A stretch of DNA of 64,000 nt from a candidate division WOR-3 bacterium (lineage in GTDB: Bacteria; Hydrothermota; Tepidihabitantia; SM23-42). The notes beneath the pieces were generated by a model. That model ran no database searches and was not told the origin of the DNA. It saw nothing but the letters and a program-made list of their open reading frames with translations. Shown piece by piece: positions 5,788 through 60,015 of the stretch. Position 1 is the first letter of the stretch. Each line of letters opens with the position of its first letter. Both the position numbers and the translations under genes were made by a program. The stretch covers positions 23,986-87,985 of the forward strand of contig JALVOT010000014.1 in assembly GCA_027026255.1 (NCBI GenBank), given 5' to 3'.

Positions 5788-5802
5788 TTTTCCTTCTTGA
5801 TA

Positions 5803-21412: not shown

Positions 21413-22573
21413 ATGCGATATTTAATGATAATCAATGTGCTTTTTGTTTCTATTCTCAGTAACTGCACCCACTACATAAAATATACTCCGGATCCGGAAA
21501 GGGATATCGGAGATTGGGTAAAGAACTTTAATTGCCAGAAATCATTTCATTATTCATATAAATTGCAGACCGCCTGGCTCTCTTCGACAGCCGAGGGTGA
21601 TTGTATTATCGGCCTCGGTGAGCATATCAAGGGGACCTGGCAAAGGCCAGAATCTACGGTCAATTTTGAATATATTGGATTAGGGGATATCGAGTATATT
21701 AAAAAGGATGGAAAATGGGAACGGGCAGTAAGGGGGGAAGAATCCAATATATTTGAGCAGATTAAGCGGATAATGGAGTTTGACAGCTTTGTATATAAGG
21801 GGTTTGAACAGGGATACTGGTATCAATTTAAACCGAATATTCCATTCCTTGCCCCAAAGAGATGGCGCGATATGAAGGGATATCTTAAAATTTCTGAGAA
21901 GACATTTTTGCCTGAATTTATCTGGGCTGGACTGCCAGATTCAACGACATTTTATCAAATAAGTTTAGAGCGGTATAATAAGATAAGAGGTATAAAACCG
22001 CCGCGCCATAATTATAATCTATTTACCGTCGATATCAATATTGAACCCCGGCATGGACTTGGCTTAATTAATAAGAGGTTGAAACTGATTGGTCTGAATT
22101 ATCAACTTAAGATTCAGGATTCGGTTCTGGTGCTGAGGGTACCGGACTATTATCGTGGGACCGACCTTGAGTCGGCACTTGCTCCCGGAAGCCTTGAGGT
22201 CTGGGGCTTAACCAAACTCAAGGCAGAATCAAAAAGGGTTATATACATTAATGAGGATATTAAAAAACCAGTCTATCTTACAGGAAAATTACTGAATAAC
22301 CGCGATATTAAGGATGCACGGATTCGTTTTGATGAACGGCACCGACCCTATATTTTACTAAAACTTAAGAAGAAGTTTAAATTTCCTGAAGAGGTCGTCT
22401 TTCTATCTGATCACCGTTTGATAGCTGCGGTAAAACTTGACACCAGAAGAAAAATGGATAAAATAAGGCTGCTGACAGAAATGGAATATTATCGCATTGA
22501 ATTCCTCAGAGCCGGAATTATCCAGCCATTGCCCCCTTTGAAACTGAAAATTTTTAAAAAGGGGAGTAGTTGA
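21413..22573 (+). CDS. Hypothetical secreted protein or lipoprotein, first gene of the GT2 operon
   Basis: 386 aa with N-terminal signal peptide (MRYLMIINVLFVSILSNC); no recognised catalytic motif; stop overlaps the GT2 start. Confidence 0.5.
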   Translation: MRYLMIINVLFVSILSNCTHYIKYTPDPERDIGDWVKNFNCQKSFHYSYKLQTAWLSSTAEGDCIIGLGEHIKGTWQRPESTVNFEYIGLGDIEYIKKDGKWERAVRGEESNIFEQIKRIMEFDSFVYKGFEQGYWYQFKPNIPFLAPKRWRDMKGYLKISEKTFLPEFIWAGLPDSTTFYQISLERYNKIRGIKPPRHNYNLFTVDINIEPRHGLGLINKRLKLIGLNYQLKIQDSVLVLRVPDYYRGTDLESALAPGSLEVWGLTKLKAESKRVIYINEDIKKPVYLTGKLLNNRDIKDARIRFDERHRPYILLKLKKKFKFPEEVVFLSDHRLIAAVKLDTRRKMDKIRLLTEMEYYRIEFLRAGIIQPLPPLKLKIFKKGSS

Positions 22574-24048: not shown

Positions 24049-24197
24049 ATATTCTGGTCTGTCCAAAGTGTAAGGGTGAATTGGAATATGACCAGAAAAA
24101 TCAGGAGTTAATTTGTCACAAATGTAAACTTGCCTATGCAATAAAAGATGATATTCCTATTATGCTTATTGAAGAGGCAAGGAAATTGAATGATTGA
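24027..24197 (+). CDS. Trm112/YcaR-like small zinc-ribbon protein (56 aa; below ORF-track cutoff)
   Basis: [56 protein letters not shown]; AAGGAGG SD at 24016-24022. Confidence 0.6.
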
Positions 24198-27100
24198 CCT
24201 TGCACTGATAGTTTTCGTTATTGCAGGGACAGATATCCGAACAGTTGAAGACGGTGTTATAGTATCATTTTCAATGACAAAGGTTGAGGCGGAAAGTCTT
24301 AAAATCCCTGATGCGCGGTGGTTAAATAAGGTCGGTGATCCGGCACTGCCTTGTTTACACTATAAATTCGGTATCCCACAGAATGGTGAGGTTGCGGTTT
24401 CGATACTGGAGAATGATGAGGCGGTGATCGATGGTCAGAAGATTGACCCAGTGGTTGAGTTGGGTATTAAGGAATCGGCACCCCGGGATACAGAATTATT
24501 CCGCAGTGAAGTCTATAAAGAAAATAAGTTTTTCCCTCACAATTTGGTTGTTGTTTCCGAACCGGGATATCTGCGTGATCTCTATACAGTTGATGTGCGG
24601 ATTAATCCGGTCCGTTATAACCCGGTGAAGAACCGGGTGCGTTATTCGAGAAGATTTATTATAAAAATAAAGTTTAAAGGTAAGCCGTTCATTAATGCTC
24701 CTTTTGATACTACATTTGAAAGGGTAATGCGCCATCTGGTTGATAATTATGAGCAGTGCCGTCTCTGGCGTTTGACACCATCACGGAATGGGACAAATCC
24801 ATTTGCCCAGGGAACCTGGTTTAAGATAGCGGTTGAAAAAGAGGGGATTTATCGGATTGGCTATAAAGAGATTAAGAATGCCGGGATCGACCCTGCCCAA
24901 TTTGACCCCAGGACGATGCGGATTTATACGGCAAAATTTGACCTCTTAACACGGAGCGTTCCATTGCCTGATTCACTCGATTCATTGGTTGAAATCCCCT
25001 GTTTTGTTCAGGGTGAATCAGATGGGGTGTTTAATAAAGATGACTATCTTGTTTTCTACGGCTATCCAGCAAGCCATTTTATTCCTGATACCTCAATTTC
25101 CTGGTTTTATAATGGATATGCAAAAAAGAATATCTACTGGTTTACATTTGGTGGAAAATATGGTAAGAGGATGTCGAGGGTAGATGCCCGTTATAATGGA
25201 GACCCTGTCGATACCCTGGTACAGGAGGTGCTGCATTTTGAAGAGGATAATGGTAATCCGACGCGTTCTGGCATAAACTGGTACTGGCAGGAGGTTTCCC
25301 CGGGTGAGGGTCAGGGCGCTGAAACCTCGGTTAATATTGAACATCCCTTTGCAGCGGGAGATGCCCGTATCAGCGCCAGCCTTTTCGATTCAATCGGGGT
25401 GAGCGGTCCATTTATTTATCGTTTTTCCGTAAATGATAATATAGCTTATAATGAGACCTTATCGCTCAGTTCTCACTGGTCATTTCCTCCCCAGTATTTT
25501 AATATCGAGACATCCTTAAAAGGTGATTCCTCTATTTTTAAGATTGAACTCATCCGACCCCAGGGGGTGGAAGGCAAGATGCTTGCCTGGTTTAATGCCC
25601 TTGATATTCTTTATCAGCGCCTCACCCGATTGACAGAACCTTTCCATGCATATTTTTCGGCACCCGAAGATTACTCTATCAAATGTGATGATGCAGAAGA
25701 ACCGGTTTTTGTCTTTGATATTTCTGATATACAAAATCCCAGGATGTTGTATAATTTAAAGCTGGATAATGGAAAACTTTATCTTTCAGGAACCTGCGAT
25801 TCTTTTCAGCTGCTCTATTTTTGTAAACTTGGTTCGACTGAACCGGTTAAATTGATTCCCGCCAAACCGGGAAAATTACGCGAGCATTCTTCTGGATGCC
25901 AGTATCTTATAATCACCCATCCGAAATTTTCTAAGGCGATAATGCCCCTTGTGCACTACCGCAGCCAGGACTATACAGTTAGGGTGGTGAATATTTATGA
26001 AATCTATGATGATTTTTCATACGGAAAGTTTGACCCCTTAGCGATTAAGCATTTCTTTTATTATGCCCTTAATAACTGGGATGTCTTTCCGAGTTTTGTG
26101 CTTTTGGTGGGTGACGGCACATACGATTATAAGAATAATCTTCATAAAGAAAATCCTCCCAATTATATTCCGATGTATGAAACAGGGAGTCTTTTAATCG
26201 GTAATCCCGGAATTCCTCCGAATACAATTTATGAAGGTGAATATACCGATTTTGGAGGCGGCGAGTCAGTTGCCTCAGGCAGAATCACGGTCAGGACCAA
26301 TGCCGAGGTCAGGGACTTTATTGATAAGTTAATTACCTATGAGACGAAAAATATTGACGGTATCTGGAATCAAAGGATTATCCTTGCCGGTGATGATGAG
26401 TATGCGGGAAACCACTGGGAAGGACCGGATATGCACTGTGGCGCCTGTGAGGCTATATTCAGGAATGTCCCGGATTCTCTTTATAACTTCGCCAAGATTT
26501 ATATGATAAGTTATCCGCCGTTTCCACCCTACGGAGGTCAGGTCAATAAGGTGAATGCCCGCAAGGCATTTATTCGGGAATTGAATAAGGGCGGTTTTGC
26601 CGGAGTCTATTTCGGCCATGGCAATACTCATCAGCTTGCCCATGAAGGGCTCTTCTATGATATTTATATTCCCGAAATAAATAATGGGAGACGATGTTAT
26701 TTCTTTTATTTTGGTTCCTGCACCGTAGGAAGGTTTGATGATTCGGATTATGAATGTATCGGTGAGGAATTTGTGCGGATTAAAGACGGCGCAATCGGCA
26801 CGATGGCATCAACCGGTGGCACCTATGTGCAGGGTAATGTGGCTATCGGTAATACTCTTTTTAGACTGATGACCTCACCGGATAGTGATTTGACAATGGG
26901 CGAGTGTTTTCGCATCGCCAAGGTGTATGGAAGCCCGTCATATCTTCTTATCGGTGAGCCGGCAACGAGATTAAGAAAAATAAAGACAAAAATGACATTG
27001 ACTGCCTTGAGTGATTCATTGAAGCCCCTTCAAAGGTTGAAAGCGGTCGGGTCTGTCCCTTATTATTATCTTGACGCCTTTGTTCGTGATACTACACATA

Positions 27101-28023
27101 TCGAGAAGTTTGATGCTACAACCCAGGATAAGATTAGTGGTCATGTCTATCGGTTGGTCCAGACCGGACGGAATGCCTGGAAACCGTTTGATTATCAAAT
27201 AGATGGTAAAGAGATATATTCAGGATTCTGGGATGATGATACTGCGAAGATGATTGTTCCGCAGGTATCTACGGTAAACCGCCCGGTAGTAAAATTGACC
27301 TATTGCGCCAATCGCAAATCTGGTTCGCTCGATTCAATTCTGATTTATGGGGTGGCATCACCTTCATCTGATGATCAGGGACCGCAACTAAAACTTTATG
27401 ATCAGGCAAGGGTTTTACAGAATGGGGATTGGGTGGATAAGGATTTTATCCTTACCGGTCGGGTTGCTGATATGAGCGGCATTAATCTGCTAAATTCAGT
27501 TGAGGACATCAATCGCGGTTTTTATCTCTATATAAATAATGATATCGATAATAGGATTGATTTAAGAGACTATTTTACCTATGATAAGAATTCCTATACA
27601 GATGGAACATTTAATGTGAAGATTAGCCTGCCTAATCCGGTTGATACAATTAAGATAAATGTTGCGGATAATAATTATAATCAGACATATCAGAAACTTA
27701 TATTAAATACCGATATTTATGAATCGGTTAAGATTTCTAATTTTCTGGTCTATCCAAATCCGATTACAAATGACGCCGGGGTGTGGTTTACATTTAACCT
27801 TTCAAGTTCAGCCCTGGTTAATTTAAAGGTCTTTACAATTGCAGGACGACTTGTAAAGACAATCGATGATTTCTACTGTCGAGCCGGTTATAATCAGAAA
27901 TTCTGGGATGGTCTTGATGATTCGGGTCAGCCTCTTGCTAATGGAGTTTATCTGGTCAGGGCATATTGTGAGAAGGCTAACGCCCGGACTGAAGTGATTG
28001 AAAAATTTATTATCGCCCGATAA
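24190..28023 (+). CDS. Gingipain-like cysteine peptidase (family C25) with T9SS-type C-terminal sorting domain
   Basis: 1277 aa; C25 catalytic dyad context [10 protein letters not shown]...[15 protein letters not shown]; C-terminal about 80 aa ([20 protein letters not shown]...[10 protein letters not shown]) resembles the T9SS CTD beta-sandwich. Confidence 0.7.
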
Positions 28024-34089: not shown

Positions 34090-34320
34090 ATGCTGAAGCG
34101 TGTTTATGTTTCTTTAGATGAATTTACTGCGATAACACTTAAGACAATGCTTGAGGGGAAAGGTATTAAGGCGATGGTTCGCAGGTTTGAGACAACCTGG
34201 CTTAACGGTTTACCGAAATTTATGGAAGGCGGCTGGGGAGAAATTTTGGTTCCGGAAGATGATAAAGAACTGGCTGAAAGATATATTCAGGAATTTCTCA
34301 AAGACAGCAATCAGGATTAA
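34090..34320 (+). CDS. DUF2007-like small protein
   Basis: 76 aa; family assignment from overall pattern only. Confidence 0.4.
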   Translation: MLKRVYVSLDEFTAITLKTMLEGKGIKAMVRRFETTWLNGLPKFMEGGWGEILVPEDDKELAERYIQEFLKDSNQD

Positions 34321-34885
34321 ATTTTTTACCAAATTTATTGTAAGAAACGATTTCTTTGAGTTTTTTGCGCGGTCGGGCATTAATTCCTCCGATACCTCTT
34401 TTGTTTGATGGTTCTGCAGGATATCCCAGTGCCAGAAGCACTGCAATACGATAACGACGCGGAATATCGAGCAGTTTTTTTATGTAGGGTTCATTAAACC
34501 AACCCACAAAGCAGGTTCCAATACCAAGTTCGGTTGCCGCCATAACCATATGGGTCATCGCGATGGAAATGTCAATCAGATGATTTTCGTGTTTGAATAT
34601 CTGGGCGATATAATGGGTCAGTGCCTTTTGATAACAGCCCACGATTACCAGAGGTGCATCCTTTATCCATTTAATTATACCCCTTGTTCCCGCCGGAACC
34701 CTATCCGGAATCTTGTTGATAATCTCTTTATCGTCAATTACTACAAAATGCCAGGCCTGACGATTACTTGATGATGGGGCAAGCCTTGCCGCTTCGAGAA
34801 TCTTTAATATCTTATCCGCTTCAATTTTTTGTCGGGAAAATTTTCTGATACTACGACGCCATTCAATTGCTTCAAATACATTCAT
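34298..34885 (-). CDS. Nitroreductase-family flavoprotein
   Basis: 195 aa; nitroreductase-fold motifs (RRSIRKF near N-terminus; GIGTCFVGWF). Confidence 0.7.
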   Translation of the reverse strand: MNVFEAIEWRRSIRKFSRQKIEADKILKILEAARLAPSSSNRQAWHFVVIDDKEIINKIPDRVPAGTRGIIKWIKDAPLVIVGCYQKALTHYIAQIFKHENHLIDISIAMTHMVMAATELGIGTCFVGWFNEPYIKKLLDIPRRYRIAVLLALGYPAEPSNKRGIGGINARPRKKLKEIVSYNKFGKKFNPDCCL

Positions 34886-34916
34886 AAAATATTTTTTGAA
34901 TTTTAATTATTTTAAT

Positions 34917-35501
34917 TTATGTGAGGCCGAACAGTCCGCTGAATCCGAGGAATGCGAGAGAAACAAGGCTGGCGGCAATGAATGCGATTGGATATCCTTT
35001 TAATGATGGGTTTATCGGGGCAAGATCAAGTTGTTCTCTGATTGCAGCAAAGGTGATGATGACCAGGATGAATCCAAGTCCGGTACCGATTGCGAATATA
35101 GTAGCATTGAGGAGATTGAAGTTGTTGTCAATATTTAAAAATGTTACGGCGAGGATTGCACAATTAGTTGTAATTAATGGTAGATAGATACCGAGTGCAT
35201 CATAAAGATTTTTATATGACTTTTTTAAAAACATCTCAACCAGCTGCACTAAAGAGGCGATCGTGAGAATAAAAGTAGCCGTCCTTAAGAATACTAAATT
35301 CAGGGGTAAAAGAATGAGATGAAAGACAATCCAGGTAATCCACGCCGCCAGGGTCATTACAAAGATTACAGCCATTCCCATTCCGGTTGCGGTCTCAACC
35401 GCCGTGGAAACTCCAAAGAATGGACATAATCCAATGAAACGCATCAGTATTATGTTATTTACAAGAAACGCACCGAGAAATATTAACGCAGGATTCTTCA
35501 T
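34917..35501 (-). CDS. rnfA: Rnf electron-transport complex subunit A
   Basis: 194 aa, 6 TM; GLCPFFGVS signature, paralogous to RnfE. Confidence 0.85.
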   Translation of the reverse strand: MKNPALIFLGAFLVNNIILMRFIGLCPFFGVSTAVETATGMGMAVIFVMTLAAWITWIVFHLILLPLNLVFLRTATFILTIASLVQLVEMFLKKSYKNLYDALGIYLPLITTNCAILAVTFLNIDNNFNLLNATIFAIGTGLGFILVIITFAAIREQLDLAPINPSLKGYPIAFIAASLVSLAFLGFSGLFGLT

Positions 35502-36100
35502 TATTGCCCCTTTCTTACATATTTATTGATTAATGCCTTTAATATTCCGATTACCAGAAAGGCACCGGGTGGAAGGATCATAAATATAACCGGTGACTTT
35601 TTGAAGCCTTCACCAAGCACCACCATTCCCAGGAATGTGCCGTTGCCCAGAATTTCCCGAATCGTGCCCATAATAGTCAGGGCTATGGTGAACCCCAGTC
35701 CGGTTCCCAAGCCGTCAAGTGCTGCATCAAGGACCGAATTCTTGGAAGCAAAGGCTTCGGCCCGGCCCAGAATCATACAGTTTACAACAATCAAAGGGAC
35801 AAACACACCCAGGGCACGATAAAGTTCGGGTTCGTATGCCTGCATAAAGTAGTCAATAATCGTAACAAATGTCGATATGATTAATATGAATATGGGTATC
35901 CTTACCTGATTCGGGATATTCCTGCGCAGCACCGATATTATAACATTTGAGAAGAATAGAACAAAGGTTGCGGCCAGACCCATACCAAAACCGTCGCGCA
36001 CTGTCCCTGAGGTGGCAAGGGCTGGACAGAGTCCAATCATCAGGACAAATACTGCATTCTCTTTCATTAATCCCCGGGTAAAGATATTTATTCGTTTCAT
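35501..36100 (-). CDS. rnfE: Rnf electron-transport complex subunit E
   Basis: 199 aa; LMIGLCPALATS signature. Confidence 0.85.
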   Translation of the reverse strand: MKRINIFTRGLMKENAVFVLMIGLCPALATSGTVRDGFGMGLAATFVLFFSNVIISVLRRNIPNQVRIPIFILIISTFVTIIDYFMQAYEPELYRALGVFVPLIVVNCMILGRAEAFASKNSVLDAALDGLGTGLGFTIALTIMGTIREILGNGTFLGMVVLGEGFKKSPVIFMILPPGAFLVIGILKALINKYVRKGQ

Positions 36101-36993
36101 TTCAAATACTCCTTAAACCGTTTAATGCCGTTCTTCACGCCATTGATTAATGCCTTAGATGAAATTGTCGCACCGGTTATCGCTTCGGGCATTCCTTTTT
36201 TAAATTTATTGAGAAAATTCTGGTCTTTGATTTTGTCACCAAAGCCGGCGCTTTCATTTATATAGAGAATATCGACCCCGGTGATTTTCTTTTTCTTATT
36301 TAATCCCACAATGAACTTAATCGTATCAAGATAGCCGGATGTTGCACCGATAAATACGATACCCAGGGTATCGGTATCACTCAATGCATACCAGAGGGTA
36401 TCTTTTATAATAGGAGAAAATGATTTTGCCCCGGGGAAGAGCTTCTTTTTATCGTATGTGGGGCCTAAATATTTTGAATAGGTATCAATGCCCTGTTTAA
36501 TACCATTGCAGACCGCCCTTGATGATATCGTTGCGGCGGTAATGCCATCGATTGTGCCGCCGTCTTTTTTCAGTAATACATCATTACCACATTTTCCGAT
36601 AAATTGTCCGGTAAATTCCGGTTCCGTGGTCTTGACACCCAAACCCGGAGTCTCTTTCAGACCTTCAGCTGCACTGGCAATCTTTATTCCGGTAATCTTA
36701 CCATCCGGGCCTAAACCTACGGTTATGGGGATAGGTCCACCATAGCCGCGCGGAAATACCCGATAAACAATGCCTACTCTGTTGCCGGCCGAATCAAATG
36801 CCTGCCATAGGGTATCCGGGATAATATTCTTAAATTCCCGGGCTTCGATAACCTGTCTTAATCCTTCAAGACTCAATTTCTTTTTGGTTTCTTTTATCCG
36901 GGGCGAAGTAAATGCATAAACAAATGATAATACAACAGCACAGACGAGTGCAACGATAAACAGGGTCAGAACCATTTTCCTCGTGTCGTTCAT
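36097..36993 (-). CDS. rnfG: Rnf subunit G with tandemly duplicated FMN-binding domain
   Basis: 298 aa, about 100 aa longer than usual. Two homologous modules, each ending in the FMN-attachment motif (IDGITAATISSRAVCNGIKQGI; EAITGATISSKALINGVKNGIKRF) and each starting with DTLW. Confidence 0.8.
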   Translation of the reverse strand: MNDTRKMVLTLFIVALVCAVVLSFVYAFTSPRIKETKKKLSLEGLRQVIEAREFKNIIPDTLWQAFDSAGNRVGIVYRVFPRGYGGPIPITVGLGPDGKITGIKIASAAEGLKETPGLGVKTTEPEFTGQFIGKCGNDVLLKKDGGTIDGITAATISSRAVCNGIKQGIDTYSKYLGPTYDKKKLFPGAKSFSPIIKDTLWYALSDTDTLGIVFIGATSGYLDTIKFIVGLNKKKKITGVDILYINESAGFGDKIKDQNFLNKFKKGMPEAITGATISSKALINGVKNGIKRFKEYLK

Positions 36994-37985
36994 TTCTTTC
37001 CCTTTCTGATTTCTCCAAAAACCCGTTCCCTGGTCAATCGATCAATAAGCGGCGTGAAGACATTCATTAAAAGAATTGAATATGATACACCTTCAGGATA
37101 TCCACCCCAGACTCTTATCACCATTGTGAGCACACCACAACCAATCCCAAAGATCCACCTGCCCTTTTTGGTAATGGGCGAGGTTACCCAATCGGTTGCC
37201 ATAAAGAAGACACCAAGGAATAGACCGCCCGAAAACAGGTGGAAGAGAAGGCTGCCTCTGGTTGGGAGAACCAAGGCGAGCAGGATAAAACTGCCCAGAT
37301 ATCCTACAACAATGCGGTAATCAGTAATTCCAATGATAATTAAAAATATTCCCCCAATTAATAATAATAGGGCAGAGGTTTCTCCAATGCATCCTCCGAC
37401 CTTACCGATAAAAAGGTTCTTAATCGTTGCGAATTCATTCAAATGTTTGATAACAAAATGGGGATCACCATAGTTTGCCGCATTTTTCAAGAGATTGAGT
37501 GGTGTCGCCGAGGTTATACCATCAATACCCGATAGAGTTCCGTTTACCGGGGCAAGCCATTCCTTGGTCATCGCCCAGGGCCAGGATGCCATTAAAAATG
37601 CACGGCCGGCCAATGCCGGATTAATGAAATTGTAACCCAGCCCACCGAATAACTGTTTTGCAAAGATTATGGCAAATGCGCTTCCTACAATCGGGATCCA
37701 GAAAGGAACCCCGGGCGGCAGGTTGAATGCAAGTAGTATTCCGGTGAGGATTGCGCTGCCGTCGGTGATGCTGATATTCCGACCCAACATGCGCTCCATT
37801 ACTGCCTCACACACAACACTTGTGATAATACTTAACAGCACAATAATCAATGCCCTGATACCAAAGAGATAAGTGCTGAAAATCAAGGTTGGGATGAGGG
37901 CGATAATAACCAGACGCATTGCCTTATTGATATCTCGCTTTGACCTTATATGAGGAGATGCAGATACCTGTAATAATTCTTTCAT
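36990..37985 (-). CDS. rnfD: Rnf electron-transport complex subunit D
   Basis: 331 aa polytopic NqrB/RnfD-type protein; conserved GGxxxN/P regions. Confidence 0.85.
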   Translation of the reverse strand: MKELLQVSASPHIRSKRDINKAMRLVIIALIPTLIFSTYLFGIRALIIVLLSIITSVVCEAVMERMLGRNISITDGSAILTGILLAFNLPPGVPFWIPIVGSAFAIIFAKQLFGGLGYNFINPALAGRAFLMASWPWAMTKEWLAPVNGTLSGIDGITSATPLNLLKNAANYGDPHFVIKHLNEFATIKNLFIGKVGGCIGETSALLLLIGGIFLIIIGITDYRIVVGYLGSFILLALVLPTRGSLLFHLFSGGLFLGVFFMATDWVTSPITKKGRWIFGIGCGVLTMVIRVWGGYPEGVSYSILLMNVFTPLIDRLTRERVFGEIRKGKK

Positions 37986-39274
37986 TTTTTCTCGGTTCTC
38001 CTTATCTCTGCTTTACCATATTTAATATAATGAACAAGCGGGATTCTTGCCGGACAACTGTAGGCACAACATCCACATTCAATACAATCCAAGGCGCCAA
38101 ACTCCTTTGCCGTTTTGAACCGGCGGTTTTTGACAAATTTATAAATTTCCGTAGGCATCAAGCCCATAGGGCAGACATCAATACAACTGGCACAGCGCAC
38201 ACATGGACCTTCAGGAAATGTTTGTGCCCTGGCCCGGACAATTATCCCTGATGTGCCTTTGATTACCGGGACCTCGTCGGTGAATTGGGCAATGCCCATC
38301 ATCGGGCCGCCAAAGATAATCTTCTTTGGTGGGTTTGTGTATCCGCCGCAGTGGTTTATTACATCTATCGCCCGGGTTCCAATACGGACGAGAAGATTTT
38401 TCGGTTCTTTTATACCATCGCCAGTAACCGTAACAACCCGGTCGATCAATGGTTTACGGTATTTTGCCGCTTGGAATGCAGCATAGGCAGTTCCAACATT
38501 CTGAACCACACATCCAACATCCATCGGCAGGCCTCCCCTGGGGACCTCACGATTGAGCACCGCCTTAATCAACTGTTTCTCTGCACCTTGAGGATATTTT
38601 GTCTTTAAAATTACCACTTCAACGCCTTCTTTTTTTAAGACATCGGCGGCATCAAGTTTATTATTTTCAATTGCGAATATGAGCCGGGGTGCATCTAAAA
38701 CACGCTGGAATAAACCGGCGCCTTCAATTATGCCAATCGGGTATTCCAGAATTAATCGGTGATCAGCAGTAAGCATTGGTTCACATTCACAGCCGTTTAT
38801 AATAATGGTATCTATCTTTTTACCCTCAGGTGGAGATAGTTTGACATAGGTTGGAAATGCTGCACCCCCCAGACCCACGATACCGGCTTCTTTAATGATC
38901 TCAATAAGTTCTTTGCGGCTTAAGGATTCATAATTCTGCTTTACCTTAACGCCTTGTTCCCATTCATCCTGATTATTTGATTCAATAATACAGCAGAGTG
39001 ACTCTCCGACAACCGGGTGGGGATATTTTTTGATATCCACCACCGTGCCTGAAATACTTGAATGGACCGAACTGGAAATAAAGCCATCTGCTTCACCGAT
39101 CTTTGTGCCTACCTTTACCTCATCGCCCTTTTTTACCAGGGGAAGTGCTGGTTTGCCAGTATGCTGAGAAAAGGGGATATAGACCCTTTTTGGTAAGGGC
39201 ATCGCCTCAATAGCAATCTTTTCAGTATATTTTTCTTCGTGGGGATGAACTCCACCAGAAAATCCCTTTGCCAT
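37982..39274 (-). CDS. rnfC: Rnf electron-transport complex subunit C (start refined to ATG 39272-39274)
   Basis: Two 4Fe-4S motifs (CASCIDVCP; CIECGCCAYSCP) and NADH-binding fold. The internal ATG (MAKGFSGGVHP...) lies 7 nt after a consensus promoter, so the TTG at 39292 in the ORF track is rejected. Confidence 0.85.
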   Translation of the reverse strand: MAKGFSGGVHPHEEKYTEKIAIEAMPLPKRVYIPFSQHTGKPALPLVKKGDEVKVGTKIGEADGFISSSVHSSISGTVVDIKKYPHPVVGESLCCIIESNNQDEWEQGVKVKQNYESLSRKELIEIIKEAGIVGLGGAAFPTYVKLSPPEGKKIDTIIINGCECEPMLTADHRLILEYPIGIIEGAGLFQRVLDAPRLIFAIENNKLDAADVLKKEGVEVVILKTKYPQGAEKQLIKAVLNREVPRGGLPMDVGCVVQNVGTAYAAFQAAKYRKPLIDRVVTVTGDGIKEPKNLLVRIGTRAIDVINHCGGYTNPPKKIIFGGPMMGIAQFTDEVPVIKGTSGIIVRARAQTFPEGPCVRCASCIDVCPMGLMPTEIYKFVKNRRFKTAKEFGALDCIECGCCAYSCPARIPLVHYIKYGKAEIRRTEKK

Positions 39275-39281
39275 ATCAAGC

Positions 39282-39309
39282 AGTATAGTCAATTTTTTTC
39301 CAAAGTCAA
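39282..39309 (-). promoter_or_regulatory. Leaderless sigma70-type promoter (TTGACT, 16 bp, TATACT, 7 nt to ATG) for rnfCDGEA
   Basis: -35 at 39304-39309, -10 at 39282-39287 on the minus strand. Confidence 0.5.
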
Positions 39310-51559: not shown

Positions 51560-51736
51560 TCATTGCATTAGAAAAAAATGAAGTTAAAAGGTTGGGTGGT
51601 TGTGAAAAAAAAATCAATCATTCGGGCATTCTGGGTTTGCCCCCGGTTACTTTTTTCTCATTCGGATTCGTAAAACTCCACTCCGATATACCGAATGCCC
51701 CCCCCCTATTTTTAACACCTGAATTTTCCTTTTATG

Positions 51737-51764
51737 TTGACATTCATTGGAAATTGGTTATTAT
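51737..51764 (+). promoter_or_regulatory. sigma70-type promoter (TTGACA, 16 bp, TATTAT, 13 nt to ATG 51778) for the trehalose synthase gene
   Basis: Boxes read directly; supports the internal ATG as start rather than ORF-track 51592. Confidence 0.5.
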
Positions 51765-51777
51765 AATAGTAGTTATT

Positions 51778-53961
51778 ATGGTCAAATTGATAATTGTTTC
51801 CAATCGCTTGCCGATTACCGTTGTAAAACGGGAAGGAAGATTAAAATTTAATCCCAGTGTTGGTGGACTGGCAACCGGACTTGAATCTTTTTATAAATCG
51901 TATAACAGTATCTGGGTAGGCTGGCCGGGGACGGCGGCGGAAAGAATAAAAAATGAGAAAGAACAGATATACGAGAGATTGACGAAAGATAATTCCTATC
52001 CGGTGTTTTTGAAACAACATGATATTGATTTATATTACCACAGTTTCTGTAATAAAACAATCTGGCCCCTTTTTCACTATTTCACCCAGCATACAAGCTA
52101 CAATAAAAAATCCTGGCAGGCATATAAACGGGTAAATGATATTTTTTGCAAAGAGGTCTTGAAAGTCGCCCGTGCTGAAGACAAGATATGGGTTCACGAC
52201 TATCAATTGATGCTATTGCCGAAGATGTTAAGGGAAAAATTACCCGAGGCGACAATCGGTTTTTTTCTTCACATTCCTTTTCCATCTTCTGAGGTCTTCA
52301 GACTTCTTCCCTGTAGAAAGGAGATTATTGAAGGTATTCTCGGTGCCGACCTTGTCGGCTTTCATACCTATGACTATGTGCACCACTTTATTGAATCGAT
52401 AAGAAGATTATTGGGTTATGAATTCAGTCTTGGCCAGATTGCCGCCCTGAATCGTATCATAAGGGTTGATGCATTCCCCTTAGGAATTGACTATGAAAAG
52501 TATGCCCGGGCCGCTGATAGCCAATCGGTCCAGAATGAGATTAAGAAGATAAGAAAAAAGGTGGGGGATAGGAAGATTATTATTTCTGTGGACCGCCTCG
52601 ATTATACAAAGGGCATTCCTCAGCGTCTTGAGGCATTCGAATATTTTCTTGATAAATATCCTGAGTATCGTGAAAAGGTAACTATGATACTTGTTGCAGT
52701 ACCCTCCCGCACCGGGGTCGAGCAGTATGCCCAGTTAAAAAGGAGTGTTGATGAATTAATAAGTCGCATAAATGGCGAATATGGAACCCTGAGCTGGATG
52801 CCCATCTGGTATCTTTACAGATTTCTTCCATTTCACAACCTGATTCCTTTATATCGTATCGCAGATGTTGCTCTTATTACACCCTTAAGGGATGGGATGA
52901 ACCTTATTGCCAAGGAATTTATTGCGACCAAAACTGATAAAAAAGGTGTTTTAATATTGAGTGAGATGGCGGGAGCAGCAATGGAGCTTGGGGAGGCGAT
53001 TATTGTAAACCCCAATAACAAAGAAGAGATCGCCCGGGCAATAAAAACCGCCCTTGAGATGCCGGCGTCGATTCAGATAAAAAATAATGAAGTGATGCAG
53101 CAGCGATTGAAACGCTACAATGTTGAACGCTGGGCAAATGATTTTATGGATAGGCTCTATCATATTAAGAAGATTCAACAGGACCTCAGTGCCAAAAGAT
53201 TTACACCAAATATAAAGGCGAAATTATTGGAAGATTATCAGCATAGTAAAAAAAATCTTATCCTGCTTGATTATGATGGAACATTGATTGAGTTTGTAGA
53301 ACAGCCGGGGCAGGCAAGACCCGACAATGATGTTCTCGGTTTACTCAGGCTTCTTACTGAAAAGAAGAAGAATGAAGTTGTCATTACCAGTGGTCGGCAA
53401 AAAGATATCTTAGATGAGTGGTTTCATGGATTACATCTAAATTTTATTGCCGAGCACGGGGTCTGGATAAAAAAGAAGAATAGTAACTGGCAATTGATTG
53501 AACCCCTGCGGAATGATTGGAAGGAACAGATAAGGCCAATCCTGGAATTATATGTTGACCGCACCCCGGGTTCACTTATCGAAGAAAAGGAATTTTCCCT
53601 GGTCTGGCACTATCGGAAGGCGGACCCAAAGCTTGCGGCAATCAGATTGGGTGAATTGAAGGATGCCCTTATGCATCTGACTGCAAACTTTGATCTTGGG
53701 GTGCTTGAAGGAAGTAAGATTATTGAAATAAAAAATATGGGGATAAATAAAGGAAGGGCGGTATTGCAGTGGTTAACCGAGATAGACTGGGATTTTATCC
53801 TTGCGATCGGTGATGACTGGACCGATGAGGATACATTCGCAATCTTACCCGAAATTGCCTATTCCATCAAGGTCGGGCTGGGGATATCAAAGGCAAAATA
53901 TAGTATTCCATCCCCACAGGAGGTCAGGAATTTGTTGCATGAACTGGTCGTCAAATATTAA
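51778..53961 (+). CDS. Bifunctional trehalose-6-phosphate synthase / trehalose-6-phosphate phosphatase (OtsA-OtsB fusion)
   Basis: N-terminal GT20 domain (HDYQLMLLP; HIPFPSSEVF); C-terminal HAD phosphatase (LLLDYDGTL; GDDWTDED). Confidence 0.8.
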   Translation: MVKLIIVSNRLPITVVKREGRLKFNPSVGGLATGLESFYKSYNSIWVGWPGTAAERIKNEKEQIYERLTKDNSYPVFLKQHDIDLYYHSFCNKTIWPLFHYFTQHTSYNKKSWQAYKRVNDIFCKEVLKVARAEDKIWVHDYQLMLLPKMLREKLPEATIGFFLHIPFPSSEVFRLLPCRKEIIEGILGADLVGFHTYDYVHHFIESIRRLLGYEFSLGQIAALNRIIRVDAFPLGIDYEKYARAADSQSVQNEIKKIRKKVGDRKIIISVDRLDYTKGIPQRLEAFEYFLDKYPEYREKVTMILVAVPSRTGVEQYAQLKRSVDELISRINGEYGTLSWMPIWYLYRFLPFHNLIPLYRIADVALITPLRDGMNLIAKEFIATKTDKKGVLILSEMAGAAMELGEAIIVNPNNKEEIARAIKTALEMPASIQIKNNEVMQQRLKRYNVERWANDFMDRLYHIKKIQQDLSAKRFTPNIKAKLLEDYQHSKKNLILLDYDGTLIEFVEQPGQARPDNDVLGLLRLLTEKKKNEVVITSGRQKDILDEWFHGLHLNFIAEHGVWIKKKNSNWQLIEPLRNDWKEQIRPILELYVDRTPGSLIEEKEFSLVWHYRKADPKLAAIRLGELKDALMHLTANFDLGVLEGSKIIEIKNMGINKGRAVLQWLTEIDWDFILAIGDDWTDEDTFAILPEIAYSIKVGLGISKAKYSIPSPQEVRNLLHELVVKY

Positions 53962-55243: not shown

Positions 55244-56113
55244 TTGAAAATGAATAATAAGGGTAGAGATGCCCTGCTCTTTATCCTGCCTCTGATATGC
55301 TTTGTAATTCTCTTCATCCTTATTCCCGTTATCGGGACTCTCTTAAACAGTCTGCGGCAGGATGTTTCTTTTATGCCCAAAAGGTTTATTGGTTTTACAA
55401 ATTTTGTAAGATTATCTGCTGACCAGAAGTTCTGGCAGTCGGTTCTCTTTACCCTTGTCTTTCCTGCAATCTCGGTTTTTCTGGAGATGGTCTTTGGAAT
55501 GGTCATCGCCATTACCCTGAATCAGACTTTGAAACTGCGTGGTCTTTTGCGGGGTATTGCACTCATACCCTGGGCAATACCCGGGGTGATTAGTGCCCGT
55601 ATCTGGCAGATGATATATCGTTATGATTATGGACTTGCAAATTATCTATTAAAATTTGTCGGGATTGGACCGGTTAACTGGTTGGGTAGTTCAAGTGGTG
55701 CATTCTTGTGTCTGGTTATGGCAGATGTCTGGCGTACTACACCATTTGTGGCAATAATACTCCTGGCGGGGCTTCAAGTTATTCCCACCGAATTGTATGA
55801 GCAGGCAAAGGTGGATGGTGCCGGTCCGATTAAGAGATTTCTTTACATCACCTTACCTTTGCTCAGTCCGATTATTATCGTTGCCCTTATCTTCAGGACG
55901 ATCGATGCCTTAAGGGTATTTGACATAATTTATGTCCTGACCGGGGGAGGTCCGGGTGGGGCAACTACTTCACTTTCAATCTATGGATACCGATTTTATC
56001 TTCTGGGCGATTTCGGCTATGGTTCAGCAATTTCCGTAATGCTCTTTATCTTCGCATTAATCTTTGCATTGATCTTTATTAAGGCAGGAAAATTCGGAAG
56101 GCTGTCGGTATGA
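55244..56113 (+). CDS. Sugar ABC transporter permease (MalF-type)
   Basis: 289 aa, 6 TM; EAA loop EQAKVDGAGPIKRF. Confidence 0.85.
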   Translation: MKMNNKGRDALLFILPLICFVILFILIPVIGTLLNSLRQDVSFMPKRFIGFTNFVRLSADQKFWQSVLFTLVFPAISVFLEMVFGMVIAITLNQTLKLRGLLRGIALIPWAIPGVISARIWQMIYRYDYGLANYLLKFVGIGPVNWLGSSSGAFLCLVMADVWRTTPFVAIILLAGLQVIPTELYEQAKVDGAGPIKRFLYITLPLLSPIIIVALIFRTIDALRVFDIIYVLTGGGPGGATTSLSIYGYRFYLLGDFGYGSAISVMLFIFALIFALIFIKAGKFGRLSV

Positions 56114-56934
56114 TGGTAGAGAGGGAAGAGGCGGTCTTAAAAAAATCAGGGGTGATTTTTGTATTGTTCTTCTCGCTGATTCCGGTCTTCTGGATGCTTA
56201 TAATATCATTAAGCCAGAGCCCTGATTTTCTTGTAAACGGCGAAATGGTATTAACTTTGAAGAATTACTTCGATATCATTGCCCGGCACAATTTACATTT
56301 TTTGGACTTTTTAAAAAACAGCATAATTGTTGCCGGTATCAGTTCACTATTTAGCACATTGATTGCCGCACTTGCCGGTTATGCAGTTTCCCGAATCAGA
56401 TTCAGGGGTAGAATGGTTTTTATGATTCTTGTGCTTACCCTTTCAATGTTTCCTCAGATATGTATTATCGGCTATCTCTATAAATTTATGAGCAGGCTGG
56501 GCTGGATTAATTCCTATCCAGGACTTATATTGCCATATATTGCCTGGAGTCTGCCCCTGGGTCTTTGGATTATGTTAAGTTATTTTTCTCAAATTCCCCG
56601 GGAACTTGATGAAGCCGCAATGGTGGATGGTGCAAACCGCTTTCAAATCCTCATCCGGGTGATTCTTCCGGTTGCCCTGCCTGGTTTTCTTTCTACAATA
56701 TTATTATTATTTATATTTTCATTCAATGAGTTTCTCTTTGCCCTTATGCTGACGACCGATTTTCATTCACAGACCGTGCCGGTGGGGATTGCACTTTTTC
56801 AGGGTCTCCACGGCGAGTTACCCTGGGGATATATTATGTCAGCTTCAACAATTTCCTGCCTGCCGGTAATCATTATTGCCCTTTTGTTTCAGCGCCAGAT
56901 TATTCAAGGATTGACCCGGGGTGCGGTAAAATAA
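56110..56934 (+). CDS. Sugar ABC transporter permease (MalG-type)
   Basis: 274 aa; EAA loop DEAAMVDGANRFQIL. Confidence 0.85.
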   Translation: MMVEREEAVLKKSGVIFVLFFSLIPVFWMLIISLSQSPDFLVNGEMVLTLKNYFDIIARHNLHFLDFLKNSIIVAGISSLFSTLIAALAGYAVSRIRFRGRMVFMILVLTLSMFPQICIIGYLYKFMSRLGWINSYPGLILPYIAWSLPLGLWIMLSYFSQIPRELDEAAMVDGANRFQILIRVILPVALPGFLSTILLLFIFSFNEFLFALMLTTDFHSQTVPVGIALFQGLHGELPWGYIMSASTISCLPVIIIALLFQRQIIQGLTRGAVK

Positions 56935-59688: not shown

Positions 59689-59693
59689 ACCCA

Positions 59694-59721
59694 ATTTTAT
59701 CCAAACTGCATTGAAAATCAA
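59694..59721 (-). promoter_or_regulatory. Leaderless sigma70-type promoter (TTGATT, 16 bp, TAAAAT, 5 nt to ATG) for tsaD
   Basis: -35 at 59716-59721, -10 at 59694-59699 on the minus strand. Confidence 0.5.
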
Positions 59722-59987
59722 GCCTGAGTTATTTAACGGCGCCGTCCTGGAATAATCGGGATTGGCGGGCTGGTTCTGCAGCGGTGCTTTTGGTAGAGAC
59801 ATTTCTCTTTTTGTCTGCTTTATTGAATGAACAGCCTCTGAAAACCCGGGTTCTGGTTTCTCATTGACTGTCCGGACGGATTTTAATGATTTATTAAGAG
59901 AAGGGATGTTTGATATCAGAGGGAGATTCAATAGAGAAATGGCGAATTCGTTTGTCCGAGCCATTGTTGAATCCTCGGTGGAAGGTC

Positions 59988-60015
59988 TTGACATTGATTG
60001 ATTTCTAAATATAAT
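59988..60015 (+). promoter_or_regulatory. sigma70-type promoter (TTGACA, 16 bp, TATAAT) with about 80-nt structured leader for the REC-PAS regulator
   Basis: Perfect hexamers; leader contains a GTCAGT/ACTGAC hairpin followed by a T-run. Confidence 0.5.

What the first reader, a model, noticed from the sequence alone, without database searches (positions are those of the whole stretch)
34298..39309. Rnf operon with tandem-duplicated FMN-binding RnfG, no rnfB, and a nitroreductase in the RnfB position
The operon runs rnfC-rnfD-rnfG-rnfE-rnfA from a leaderless promoter. RnfG (298 aa) contains two homologous FMN-binding modules, each with its own Thr-containing attachment motif (TAATISSRAV and TGATISSKAL), where a typical RnfG has one. 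No ferredoxin-like rnfB is present at either end of the operon. The gene after rnfA is a nitroreductase-family flavoprotein. This suggests a modified electron path, with an extra covalently bound flavin and possibly a different cytoplasmic partner.
Basis: partly seen in the sequence, partly recalled or inferred. Interest (0 to 1): 0.5.

Follow-up and report, generated by a model that had tools for sequence, protein, structure and literature searches.

The report
Rnf operon with two-flavin RnfG
This is the core operon of a membrane redox pump (Rnf) from an uncultured WOR-3 bacterium; its periplasmic subunit RnfG has two flavin-binding domains and the ferredoxin-docking gene rnfB is not next to it, but both traits are common in this phylum and two-flavin RnfGs are already described, so the locus is a mild oddity.

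Summary
On the minus strand lie rnfC-D-G-E-A, then a nitroreductase 31 nt later. RnfG (298 aa) has one membrane anchor and two homologous FMN-binding domains. Each domain has an invariant flavin-attachment threonine (T155, T276). Module 2 alone folds like solved RnfG structures. No rnfB, full-size or mini, is present anywhere in the 64 kb.

The window comes from a candidate division WOR-3 bacterium. The roughly 298-aa two-domain RnfG is the standard form in a large, well-sampled lineage. The duplication is old, and multi-flavinylated RnfGs were described in 2021 (Méheust et al., eLife). Two-domain RnfG also occurs with a normal rnfB in the same operon, so the two traits are independent.

Rnf operons in this group are often split (rnfGEAB, rnfEAB, rnfCDG, stand-alone rnfB). 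The window's RnfA/E keep all four [2Fe-2S] cysteines and are highly conserved. One relative (L007) that seems to have truly lost that branch has degenerate RnfA/E. In relatives the nitroreductase has its own ArsR-type regulator and promoter.

Most likely this is a normal Rnf with rnfB encoded elsewhere, plus an extra periplasmic flavin. I could not locate this genome's rnfB.

The parts
39282..39309 (-). Sigma-70-type promoter-like element: TTGACT (39309-39304), 16-nt spacer, TATACT (39287-39282), then 7 nt before the rnfC ATG. Implies a leaderless or near-leaderless mRNA.
   Evidence: 10 of 12 consensus matches. The same layout is conserved upstream of rnfC in L002, L004/L005, L007, L008 and L014. 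No transcript data are available.
37982..39274 (-). rnfC (430 aa from ATG 39274; the mechanical ORF starts at TTG 39292). NADH/FMN-binding subunit with two [4Fe-4S] motifs.
   Evidence: TIGR01945 rnfC at 533 bits; RnfC_N, Complex1_51K, SLBB and Fer4 domains. Cys motifs at 358-368 and 397-407. Start codon argued.
36990..37985 (-). rnfD (331 aa), membrane subunit. Flavin-attachment motif DGITSAT with T161 (codon 37503-37505).
   Evidence: PF03116 at E 1.4e-120; TIGR01946 at 351 bits. Motif. The threonine is conserved in relatives.
36097..36993 (-). rnfG (298 aa): one N-terminal transmembrane helix (about residues 7-27) followed by two FMN-binding domains.
   Evidence: PF04205 with two stretches; TIGR01947 rnfG at 150.8 bits. 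Hydropathy. AlphaFold2 model pLDDT 84.9. Foldseek top hits are RnfG 7zc6_G, 8rb8_G and 9eri_G.
36463..36852 (-). RnfG module 1 (residues 48-177), the canonical RnfG domain. Attachment threonine T155 (codon 36529-36531) in DGITAATISS.
   Evidence: Aligns to solved RnfG 7zc6_G over residues 6-174, E 2.6e-19. Groups with single-domain RnfGs in a neighbour-joining tree. T155 is invariant in 22 homologues.
36100..36462 (-). RnfG module 2 (residues 178-298), the extra FMN-binding domain. Attachment threonine T276 (codon 36166-36168) in EAITGATISS.
   Evidence: 37% identical to module 1. Its profile hits RnfG 7zc6_G at E 3.3e-20 and the multi-flavin protein domain 8p2b at E 2.8e-15. Model of the module alone: pLDDT 89.3, pTM 0.83. 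Foldseek TM-score 0.80-0.83 to RnfG 7zc6_G and 9eri_G. G274-A275-T276 are invariant.
35501..36100 (-). rnfE (199 aa). Cys25 (36026-36028) and Cys108 (35777-35779) are [2Fe-2S] ligand positions.
   Evidence: TIGR01948 at 256 bits. Cysteines. Ligand positions conserved in about 60 loci.
34917..35501 (-). rnfA (194 aa). Cys26 (35424-35426) and Cys114 (35160-35162) are [2Fe-2S] ligand positions.
   Evidence: TIGR01943 at 243 bits..
34886..34916 (-). 31-nt AT-rich spacer between rnfA and the nitroreductase. No terminator-like site, so co-transcription is likely in this genome.
   Evidence: Co-transcription is inferred, not shown.
34298..34885 (-). Small soluble nitroreductase-family flavoprotein (195 aa). 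A neighbour of the operon, probably not a subunit.
   Evidence: PF00881 at E 6e-33. Best solved relatives are generic nitroreductases (8cqt at E 7e-30). No hydrophobic segment. Orthologues (69-71% identical) lie downstream of rnfA in L002, L004 and L107; in L002 and L004 (sequence read) they sit behind an ArsR-like gene, in L107 behind a gap of matching size. None is found in L109, L111 or L007.

Best explanation
This is the core operon (rnfCDGEA) of an otherwise conventional ferredoxin:NAD+ Rnf ion pump in a candidate division WOR-3 bacterium. It is probably transcribed as a leaderless mRNA.

Its RnfG belongs to a large WOR-3 family. In that family an old internal duplication added a second periplasmic FMN-binding domain after the canonical one. 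Both domains keep the threonine to which the flavin transferase ApbE attaches FMN.

Electrons most likely travel the usual semicircle (inferred): ferredoxin, RnfB, the RnfA/E [2Fe-2S] cluster, RnfG FMN, RnfD FMN/riboflavin, RnfC, NAD+. The ferredoxin-docking subunit RnfB is most likely encoded elsewhere in the genome, because rnf operons in this group are frequently split.

The second flavin most likely acts as a periplasmic side branch. It would be an entry or exit point, or an electron buffer, towards extracytoplasmic partners, hanging off the main path. This is inference.

The downstream nitroreductase is an ordinary cytoplasmic flavoenzyme that happens to be a conserved neighbour. It is not a replacement for RnfB.
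For: Identity of all five subunits and their cofactor motifs.

Organism: homologues are named candidate division WOR-3, and the contig was located.

The two-domain RnfG is the lineage norm:
- More than 1000 homologues were found. The top 120 are all about 298 aa.
- 22 homologues down to 38% identity keep T155 and T276 and the ETxGxG loops.
- Module 2 has the RnfG fold.
- Module 1 copies cluster with single-domain RnfGs, and no module pair from one protein are sisters. The duplication is therefore old.
- Module 2 evolves faster (59% against 70% mean identity) but keeps the flavin site.

Precedent: multi-flavinylated RnfGs in RNF clusters were described, with a proposed second extracytosolic pathway (PMC8238504).

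Independence of the two traits: two-domain RnfG with rnfB in the operon occurs in L014/L015, L009 and L148. Single-domain RnfG operons without an adjacent rnfB also exist (L156, L173, L184).

Split operons and stand-alone rnfB-like genes:
- Split forms: rnfEAB (L010-13, L023), rnfGEAB (L009), rnfCDG-only (L125, L160, L166).
- Stand-alone rnfB-like genes with a transmembrane helix plus the PF04060 domain: L096 (named WOR-3), L104 and L105.

Published survey: 23 of 23 WOR-3 MAGs with rnfC, D, G, E and A also have K03616 rnfB.

The RnfA/E path is intact here. All four cluster cysteines are present. RnfA/E are 83-88% identical within the lineage (one partial RnfE ORF, L111, 69%); RnfA is 73-79% and RnfE 59-66% identical to operons that carry rnfB. 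In the one relative whose RnfA/E lost three of the four cysteines (L007), those proteins have decayed to 29-30% identity.

Support for a side branch: L007 keeps RnfC, RnfD (threonine retained) and the two-flavin RnfG although its RnfA/E branch looks dead. The NADH-RnfD-RnfG(2 FMN) arm is therefore selectable on its own.

Nitroreductase: an ArsR-type regulator gene with its own promoter precedes it in L002 and L004, and it is absent downstream in L109, L111 and L007.
Against: The rnfB of this particular genome was not found. It is absent from all 64 kb.

In none of about eight independent window-lineage loci is rnfB within the sequence available (up to 8-10 kb on either side).

None of the 240 best RnfB hits from two searches shares a contig with the window-lineage RnfGs, although about 14 of those contigs exceed 100 kb.

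The stand-alone RnfB-like genes I found belong to other organisms. They could be RnfB paralogues of the PRK07118 type rather than true subunits.

The KEGG-based rnfB calls in the survey may include such paralogues.

The role of the second flavin is entirely inferred. No periplasmic redox partner is encoded nearby.
Confidence: 0.68

Rival explanations
1. The lineage truly lacks RnfB. The RnfA/E [2Fe-2S] cluster is fed by a different cytoplasmic partner. Candidates are the adjacent nitroreductase-family flavoprotein, a soluble ferredoxin docking directly, or an unrecognised protein. This would parallel the way NqrF replaced RnfB in Na+-NQR.
For: No rnfB in 64 kb or next to any window-lineage operon. 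No shared contigs between RnfB hits and window-lineage RnfG hits. A nitroreductase orthologue lies downstream of rnfA in four of six window-lineage loci that have enough downstream sequence, while both outer flanks differ. In the window it sits only 31 nt after rnfA. Replacement of RnfB has a precedent in NQR evolution (PMC12174285).
Against: The nitroreductase has no membrane anchor and no Fe-S motif, and it resembles generic soluble nitroreductases. In L002 and L004 it follows its own ArsR-type regulator and promoter. It is missing downstream in L109, L111, L007 and L119. All 23 WOR-3 MAGs with a full rnfCDGEA set in the survey table score positive for rnfB. Split rnf operons are common in this group.
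Confidence: 0.12
2. RnfB is absent and the complex no longer uses ferredoxin. It moves electrons only between NADH (RnfC), RnfD and the two periplasmic RnfG flavins, to or from an extracytoplasmic acceptor. This would resemble the one-way 'NQR/RNF-like' systems. RnfA/E would be kept for structure or ion conduction.
For: A relative (L007) appears to have gone this way. It has rnfCDGEA, a two-flavin RnfG and no rnfB nearby, and its RnfA/E lost three of the four cluster cysteines. Méheust et al. proposed extracytosolic transfer for multi-flavinylated RnfGs.
Against: In the window all four cysteines are intact. RnfA/E are the most conserved subunits of the operon (83-88% identity within the lineage, apart from one partial RnfE ORF at 69%). 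This is the opposite of the decay seen in L007. No periplasmic redox enzyme is encoded nearby.
Confidence: 0.05
3. The second flavin is part of the main path, not a side branch. One FMN domain stays near RnfA/E and the other near RnfD. The two would form a fixed two-step relay that replaces or shortens the large swinging movement that single-domain RnfG/NqrC makes between the two sites.
For: In solved Rnf/NQR structures the single RnfG/NqrC domain must move between RnfA/E and RnfD (PMC12174285). The two domains are joined by a short linker of roughly 10-15 residues. Both flavin sites are under strict conservation. No external partner gene is evident.
Against: Module 2 evolves clearly faster than module 1, which is unexpected for a core relay element. 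Closely related operons work with single-domain RnfG (L008, 50% identity in module 1). L007 keeps both flavins without a working RnfA/E site. The inter-domain geometry in the model is not confident (pTM 0.54).
Confidence: 0.15

Closest known systems
Canonical Rnf complexes with solved structures (Clostridium tetanomorphum 7ZC6, Acetobacterium woodii 9ERI, Azotobacter vinelandii 8AHX/8RB8)
   Same: The same five core subunits with the same cofactor-binding motifs are present. These are the RnfC FMN/NADH domain plus two [4Fe-4S] clusters, the RnfD attachment threonine, four RnfA/E cysteines, and a membrane-anchored RnfG FMN domain. Module 1 aligns to 7zc6_G at E 2.6e-19.
   Different: Solved RnfGs have one FMN domain (187-207 residues in the modelled chains; 189-237 in the deposited sequences). 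This one has two (298 aa). Those operons carry rnfB (rnfCDGEAB and similar), whereas here rnfB is not linked.
Multi-flavinylated RnfGs noted by Méheust et al. 2021 (eLife 10:e66878, PMC8238504)
   Same: RnfG proteins with more than one FMN-binding domain inside rnf gene clusters. The authors proposed that they provide a second pathway to extracytosolic acceptors. This is the same concept as the present protein.
   Different: That survey defined an RNF cluster by the presence of RnfB (K03616) in the cluster. rnfCDGEA-only operons like this one would therefore not have been counted as RNF. No WOR-3 entry was found in the stored parts of its supplementary files.
Stand-alone multi-flavinylated proteins (for example CbFMN4, PDB 8P2B; PMC10339131)
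   Same: Tandem ApbE-type FMN-binding domains. The module 2 profile matches CbFMN4 domain 1 at E 2.8e-15. The representative search returned many RnfG-like proteins with 2-13 such domains.
   Different: Those proteins carry 3-13 domains, are mostly from Gram-positive bacteria, and are not subunits of an Rnf pump.
Na+-NQR and the partial 'NQR/RNF-like' systems
   Same: Homologous core (NqrB/RnfD, NqrC/RnfG, NqrD,E/RnfE,A). NQR shows that the RnfB position can be taken over by another protein (NqrF). NQR/RNF-like systems show that a one-way NAD(P)H-to-outside arm can exist alone.
   Different: All subunits here score as Rnf, not Nqr. RnfC keeps its cofactor motifs (NqrA has none). RnfD is not fused to an NqrF-like NAD-binding domain. 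RnfA/E are present and intact.

Membership tests
Rnf complex (RnfABCDGE-type ferredoxin:NAD+ oxidoreductase) | RnfC with an NADH/FMN-binding domain and two [4Fe-4S] motifs | tested here: met
   TIGR01945 at 533 bits (cut-off 246); Complex1_51K, RnfC_N and SLBB domains; two CxxCxxCxxxC motifs.
Rnf complex (RnfABCDGE-type ferredoxin:NAD+ oxidoreductase) | RnfD membrane subunit with the flavin-attachment threonine | tested here: met
   TIGR01946 at 351 bits (cut-off 207). DGITSAT with T161, conserved in relatives.
Rnf complex (RnfABCDGE-type ferredoxin:NAD+ oxidoreductase) | RnfG: N-terminal membrane anchor plus an FMN-binding domain with an attachment threonine | tested here: met
   TIGR01947 at 150.8 bits (cut-off 102). 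One hydrophobic helix. T155. Fold match to solved RnfGs.
Rnf complex (RnfABCDGE-type ferredoxin:NAD+ oxidoreductase) | RnfA/RnfE pair with four cysteines for the intramembrane [2Fe-2S] cluster | tested here: met
   TIGR01943 at 243 bits and TIGR01948 at 256 bits, both above their cut-offs. RnfE C25/C108 and RnfA C26/C114.
Rnf complex (RnfABCDGE-type ferredoxin:NAD+ oxidoreductase) | RnfB: membrane-anchored Fe-S subunit (PF04060 domain plus ferredoxin-type clusters) that accepts electrons from ferredoxin | tested here: not met
   Absent from the whole 64-kb window in all six frames. The rest of the genome could not be searched with these tools, so 'not met' applies to the locus, not to the organism.
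Rnf complex (RnfABCDGE-type ferredoxin:NAD+ oxidoreductase) | Ferredoxin:NAD+ oxidoreductase activity coupled to Na+/H+ translocation | not testable with these tools
   Requires biochemistry.
Multi-flavinylated RnfG (Méheust et al. 2021) | More than one FMN-binding (PF04205) domain in one RnfG polypeptide | tested here: met
   Two Pfam stretches. Internal homology at E 8e-19. The module 2 profile and fold match RnfG.
Multi-flavinylated RnfG (Méheust et al. 2021) | An ApbE-type [S/T]GA[S/T] attachment motif in each domain | tested here: met
   T-A-A-T155 and T-G-A-T276. Both threonines are invariant in 22 homologues.
Multi-flavinylated RnfG (Méheust et al. 2021) | Extracytosolic location of the flavin domains | tested here: met
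   A single N-terminal hydrophobic helix followed by both domains, as in solved RnfG. The topology itself is inferred by homology.
Multi-flavinylated RnfG (Méheust et al. 2021) | Encoded in an RNF cluster as that study defined it (RnfB, K03616, within the cluster) | tested here: not met
   The cluster has rnfC, D, E and A but no rnfB. The operational definition is quoted.
Multi-flavinylated RnfG (Méheust et al. 2021) | Actual covalent FMN on both threonines, installed by ApbE | not testable with these tools
   No ApbE gene is present in the window. Confirmation needs mass spectrometry.
Nitroreductase superfamily (PF00881) | Nitroreductase-fold FMN-binding domain | tested here: met
   PF00881 at E 6.3e-33. 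Best solved relatives are 8cqt (E 7e-30) and 4dn2 (E 1e-28).
RnfB-like electron input module (the role proposed for the nitroreductase) | Membrane tether and an Fe-S (or equivalent) centre able to reach the RnfA/E cluster, with strict co-occurrence with the core genes | tested here: not met
   No hydrophobic segment and no cluster motif. It has a separate ArsR-type regulator and promoter in L002 and L004. It is absent downstream of rnfA in L109, L111, L007 and L119.
NQR/RNF-like partial systems (Méheust et al. 2021) | RnfD/NqrB-like membrane domain fused to an NqrF-type NAD-binding domain, without RnfA/E | tested here: not met
   RnfD is 331 aa with only PF03116. RnfA and RnfE are present and intact.

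The most novel reading that the evidence does not exclude
The whole window lineage of WOR-3, which is well sampled in metagenomes, may run an Rnf core with no RnfB at all. In that case the intact RnfA/E [2Fe-2S] cluster would be fed by an unrecognised cytoplasmic donor. Possibilities include the syntenic nitroreductase or direct ferredoxin docking. The second periplasmic flavin would give the pump a third terminal. That would be a new input module for the Rnf/NQR machine family, comparable to the RnfB-to-NqrF swap.
Probability: 0.12. Interest if true: 0.7.

Novelty: new member of a known kind. Interest (0 to 1): 0.3.

Why it matters
Rnf is the main energy-conserving redox pump of many anaerobes, and a recent survey calls it the primary respiratory enzyme of WOR-3. 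Knowing that most of this phylum uses an RnfG with two covalent flavins matters for metabolic reconstructions. So does knowing that its rnf genes are often scattered, because annotation rules that demand rnfB in the cluster, as in the 2021 flavinylation survey, would miss these operons.

The function of a second periplasmic flavin on an ion pump is unknown and is experimentally approachable. The contrast between this intact locus and the relative with decayed RnfA/E (L007) suggests a natural series. It would run from a closed ferredoxin:NAD+ loop towards an NADH-to-outside electron outlet.

As it stands, however, the window itself shows an ordinary member of an already described class.

Tried and rejected
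Attempts to find this genome's rnfB all failed:
- Contig look-ups of RnfB hits. P0294, P0278, P0344, P0510 and P0465 all come from other organisms. GC content and tetranucleotide correlation were 0.24-0.87, against 0.95-0.98 for pieces of the window itself.
- Cluster-member look-up, to compare NCBI accession ranges. It returned no accessions.
- Matching 'longest contig' values between 120 RnfG hits and 240 RnfB hits. There was no real match.
- A genome-contig scan with an RnfB alignment.
- Looking up a protein from the left end of the window. It returned only an ENA scaffold, not the NCBI assembly accession.
- Searching the WOR-3 paper's supplement for the relevant assembly accessions. Nothing was found.

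Other dead ends and rejected ideas:
- The metagenome scan with the single RnfG protein found nothing.
- Rejected: the rnfE-A-B cluster from the sibling sample (L010) as a second copy in this genome. It has 36% GC and its RnfE/A are 67-69% identical, so it is a different species with a split operon.
- Rejected: a weak tblastn hit at 11004-11126 (E 0.03). It lies in an alternative frame inside a Yip1-family gene.
- Rejected: a Thermotoga-style mini-RnfB (about 10 kDa). No such motif is present in the window.
- Rejected: a recent tandem duplication.

Full report
WHAT IS THERE

On the minus strand of the window lie six tightly packed genes.
- rnfC (37982-39292 as a mechanical ORF), rnfD (36990-37985), rnfG (36097-36993), rnfE (35501-36100) and rnfA (34917-35501). 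Consecutive genes overlap by 1-4 nt.
- After a 31-nt AT-rich spacer comes a 195-aa nitroreductase-family gene (34298-34885).
- All five Rnf proteins score above the curated NCBIfam cut-offs for the Rnf subunits rather than the Nqr ones.
- The cofactor motifs are complete:
  - two CxxCxxCxxxC motifs in RnfC;
  - the attachment threonine of RnfD (DGITSAT, T161);
  - exactly two cysteines each in RnfE (C25, C108) and RnfA (C26, C114). By alignment with the rnfB-carrying operons and from my knowledge of the NqrD/E ligands, these are the positions that ligate the intramembrane [2Fe-2S] cluster described in PMC12174285.

THE PROMOTER CLAIM

TTGACT (39309-39304), 16 nt, TATACT (39287-39282) is the best minus-strand promoter-like site in the region. 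The ATG of MAKGFSGGVHP follows 7 nt after the -10 box. The TTG that the ORF lister takes as the start lies immediately upstream of, and 1 nt into, the -10 box.

The same layout (-35, 16-17 nt, -10, 6-9 nt, ATG) is found upstream of rnfC in L002, L004/L005, L007, L008 and L014. A leaderless or near-leaderless rnfC mRNA is therefore supported by conservation, though not by transcript data. RnfC is most likely 430 aa.

RnfG REALLY HAS TWO FLAVIN DOMAINS

- Pfam reports two FMN_bind stretches. The two halves align at 37% identity, E 8e-19.
- The protein has one N-terminal hydrophobic helix and nothing else hydrophobic.
- An AlphaFold2 model of the whole protein is confident (pLDDT 84.9). It shows the same strand/helix order twice, and its best PDB matches are the RnfG chains of solved Rnf complexes.
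The result was pLDDT 89.3 and pTM 0.83. Foldseek puts RnfG of C. tetanomorphum and A. woodii on top (TM 0.80-0.83).
- A sequence profile of module 2 hits RnfG 7zc6_G at E 3.3e-20. That alignment places its TGAT on the AITGAT motif of RnfG, the family's flavin-attachment motif.
- The profile also hits a domain of the characterised multi-flavin protein CbFMN4 at E 2.8e-15.
- In 22 two-domain homologues spanning 38-83% identity, T155 and T276, the preceding G/A-A and the ETxGxG loop are invariant or nearly so in both modules.

WHERE IT COMES FROM AND HOW COMMON IT IS

- The exact protein sits on a 312-kb NCBI contig and on ENA metagenome scaffolds. Close homologues are named candidate division WOR-3.
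- More than 1000 homologues were found, and the 120 best are all about 298 aa.
- In a search of 1.8 billion representatives, RnfG-like proteins with 2-13 FMN domains are abundant.
- A neighbour-joining tree of separated modules puts every module 1 with single-domain RnfGs. It never pairs the two modules of one protein. The duplication is therefore old.
- Module 2 evolves faster (59% against 70% mean identity within the lineage; 32% against 49% among distant members).
- Méheust et al. 2021 already described 'multi-flavinylated RnfGs' in RNF clusters. They proposed that these give a second path to extracytosolic acceptors.
- Their RNF definition required RnfB in the cluster, so operons like this one would not have been filed as RNF.

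THE MISSING rnfB

The window holds no rnfB.
- There is no other ferredoxin-type motif except in a QueG-like gene.
- There is no RnfB-type NCGxCGxxGC motif, which also rules out a Thermotoga-like mini-RnfB.
- There is no tblastn hit with six RnfB queries.

Comparing about 100 related loci shows the following.
- (a) Every window-lineage locus (window, L002, L004, L107-L111) has the two-domain RnfG and no adjacent rnfB.
- (b) Two-domain RnfG also occurs in full rnfCDGEAB operons (L014/L015), in rnfGEAB (L009), and with rnfEAB 1.4 kb downstream (L148).
- (c) Single-domain operons without an adjacent rnfB exist as well (L156, L173, L184).
- (d) The operon is often split into halves: rnfEAB alone (L010-13, L023) and rnfCDG alone (L125, L160, L166).
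- (e) Stand-alone rnfB-like genes exist in L096 (named WOR-3), L104 and L105. They have an N-terminal helix plus the PF04060 domain and score above the TIGR01944 cut-off.

The two traits are therefore independent, and unlinked rnf genes are normal here. In the stored part of Table S4 of a 181-MAG WOR-3 survey, all 23 MAGs positive for rnfC, D, G, E and A are also positive for rnfB.

AN INTERNAL CONTROL

One relative, L007 (GCA_049700315.1), has rnfCDGEA, a two-domain RnfG and no rnfB nearby.
- Its RnfE/RnfA homologues are only 29-30% identical to the window's, although its RnfC, D and G are 50-54% identical.
- Those homologues fall far below the family cut-offs and have lost three of the four cluster cysteines.
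- All other loci with RnfE/A sequence covering the ligand positions (about 60), including the window lineage, keep every ligand cysteine that their sequence covers.
- In the window lineage RnfA and RnfE are the best conserved subunits (83-88% identity, apart from one partial RnfE ORF in L111 at 69%).

Where the ferredoxin-side branch seems truly abandoned, RnfA/E decay. Here they do not. This argues that a cytoplasmic Fe-S donor, most simply RnfB encoded elsewhere, is still in use. I could not find that gene for this genome. Every route open to me failed or led to other organisms.

THE NITROREDUCTASE

- It is a small soluble member of the family with only generic solved relatives. It has no membrane segment and no cluster motif.
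- Orthologues (69-71% identical) follow rnfA in L002, L004 and L107, while the outer flanks differ. There is therefore some conserved synteny.
- In L002 and L004, however, an ArsR/SmtB-type regulator gene with its own promoter-like site lies between rnfA and the nitroreductase. L107 has a gap of matching size.
- No nitroreductase follows rnfA in L109, L111, L007 or L119.
- In the window the regulator is gone and the gene sits 31 nt after rnfA, so it is probably co-transcribed here.
- This pattern fits a neighbouring, separately regulated detoxification or redox gene better than a subunit replacing RnfB.

HOW IT MOST LIKELY WORKS

Shown by sequence and models:
- a complete RnfC-D-G-E-A core with all cofactor sites;
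- an extra periplasmic FMN-binding domain with a conserved attachment site.

Inferred:
- The pump runs the usual ferredoxin-RnfB-RnfA/E-RnfG-RnfD-RnfC-NAD+ loop, with RnfB supplied in trans.
- FMN on module 2 hangs off the periplasmic part of the path as a side entry, exit or buffer.
- The L007 case shows that the NADH-RnfD-RnfG(2 FMN) arm is kept even without a working RnfA/E site. This favours a side branch over a purely internal relay.
- The relay idea is not excluded, because the inter-domain geometry in the model is not reliable (pTM 0.54).
- No periplasmic partner is encoded nearby, and no ApbE gene is in the window.

VERDICT

This is a new member of an already described kind (multi-flavinylated RnfG), in a phylum where that form and scattered rnf genes are the rule. 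Interest is modest. The residual novel reading, a truly RnfB-less pump with a new input partner, remains possible at roughly one in eight and can be settled by a whole-genome search.

Noticed in passing
L007:5730-10052 (NCBI GCA_049700315.1, JBNAVN010000005.1): A relative has rnfCDGEA, a two-FMN RnfG (P0122) and no rnfB within 8 kb. Its RnfE/RnfA are only 29-30% identical to the window's and score far below the family cut-offs. They have lost three of the four [2Fe-2S] cysteines (RnfE C25M and C108S; RnfA C114Y). Its RnfC, RnfD (threonine retained) and RnfG stay intact. It looks like an Rnf derivative that has abandoned the ferredoxin-side branch.
   Followed up: partly
L010-L013 and L023 (rnfE-A-B only); L125, L160, L166 (rnfC-D-G only); L009 (rnfG-E-A-B): Rnf operons in WOR-3, Stahlbacteria and related metagenome contigs are repeatedly split. 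One half is NADH-side (rnfCDG) and the other is ferredoxin-side (rnfEAB).
   Followed up: partly
L096:3499-4359, L104:8001-8858, L105:5895-6764: Stand-alone short (285-289 aa) RnfB-like genes with an N-terminal helix and the PF04060 domain, and with no other rnf gene within 3.5-8 kb on either side. In L104 a small NifU-like gene follows. They may be trans-encoded RnfB or PRK07118-type paralogues.
   Followed up: partly
L004:10078-10613 and L002:10234-10530: An ArsR/SmtB-type HTH regulator gene lies between rnfA and the nitroreductase in relatives. It was not called as a gene in L004. It is missing in the window.
   Followed up: partly
window 34090-34320 (+): A 76-aa ORF with a weak, below-threshold DUF2007 match converges on the nitroreductase and overlaps its 3' end by 23 nt.
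   Followed up: no
window 6952-10257 (-) and small ORFs at 3079-6747: An 1101-aa RHS-repeat protein is followed by a run of small ORFs without family matches and an Rce1-like protease gene. This is the layout of a polymorphic toxin and immunity cassette.
   Followed up: no
window 24190-28023 (+): A 1277-aa gingipain-like C25 peptidase with a propeptide and a C-terminal FlgD_ig-type domain, probably a secreted or surface protease.
   Followed up: no
window 51592-53961 (+) and 57020-58234 (+): A fused trehalose-6-phosphate synthase/phosphatase (GT20 plus Trehalose_PPase) and a TreT-type trehalose synthase lie near ABC permease genes (55244-56934). This gives two routes to trehalose in one neighbourhood.
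   Followed up: no
window 58708-59994 (-): A TsaD/Kae1 homologue of 428 aa whose TsaD domain starts only at residue 124. The N-terminal extension is unexplained.
   Followed up: no
window 12261-13595 (-) and 21413-22573 (+): Two sizeable ORFs (444 and 386 aa) with no Pfam match at E 1e-5.
   Followed up: no
window 34298-34315 (C-terminus of the nitroreductase): The window's nitroreductase ends in an extra ...NPDCCL tail with two adjacent cysteines. Its orthologues in L002 and L004 lack this tail.
   Followed up: no
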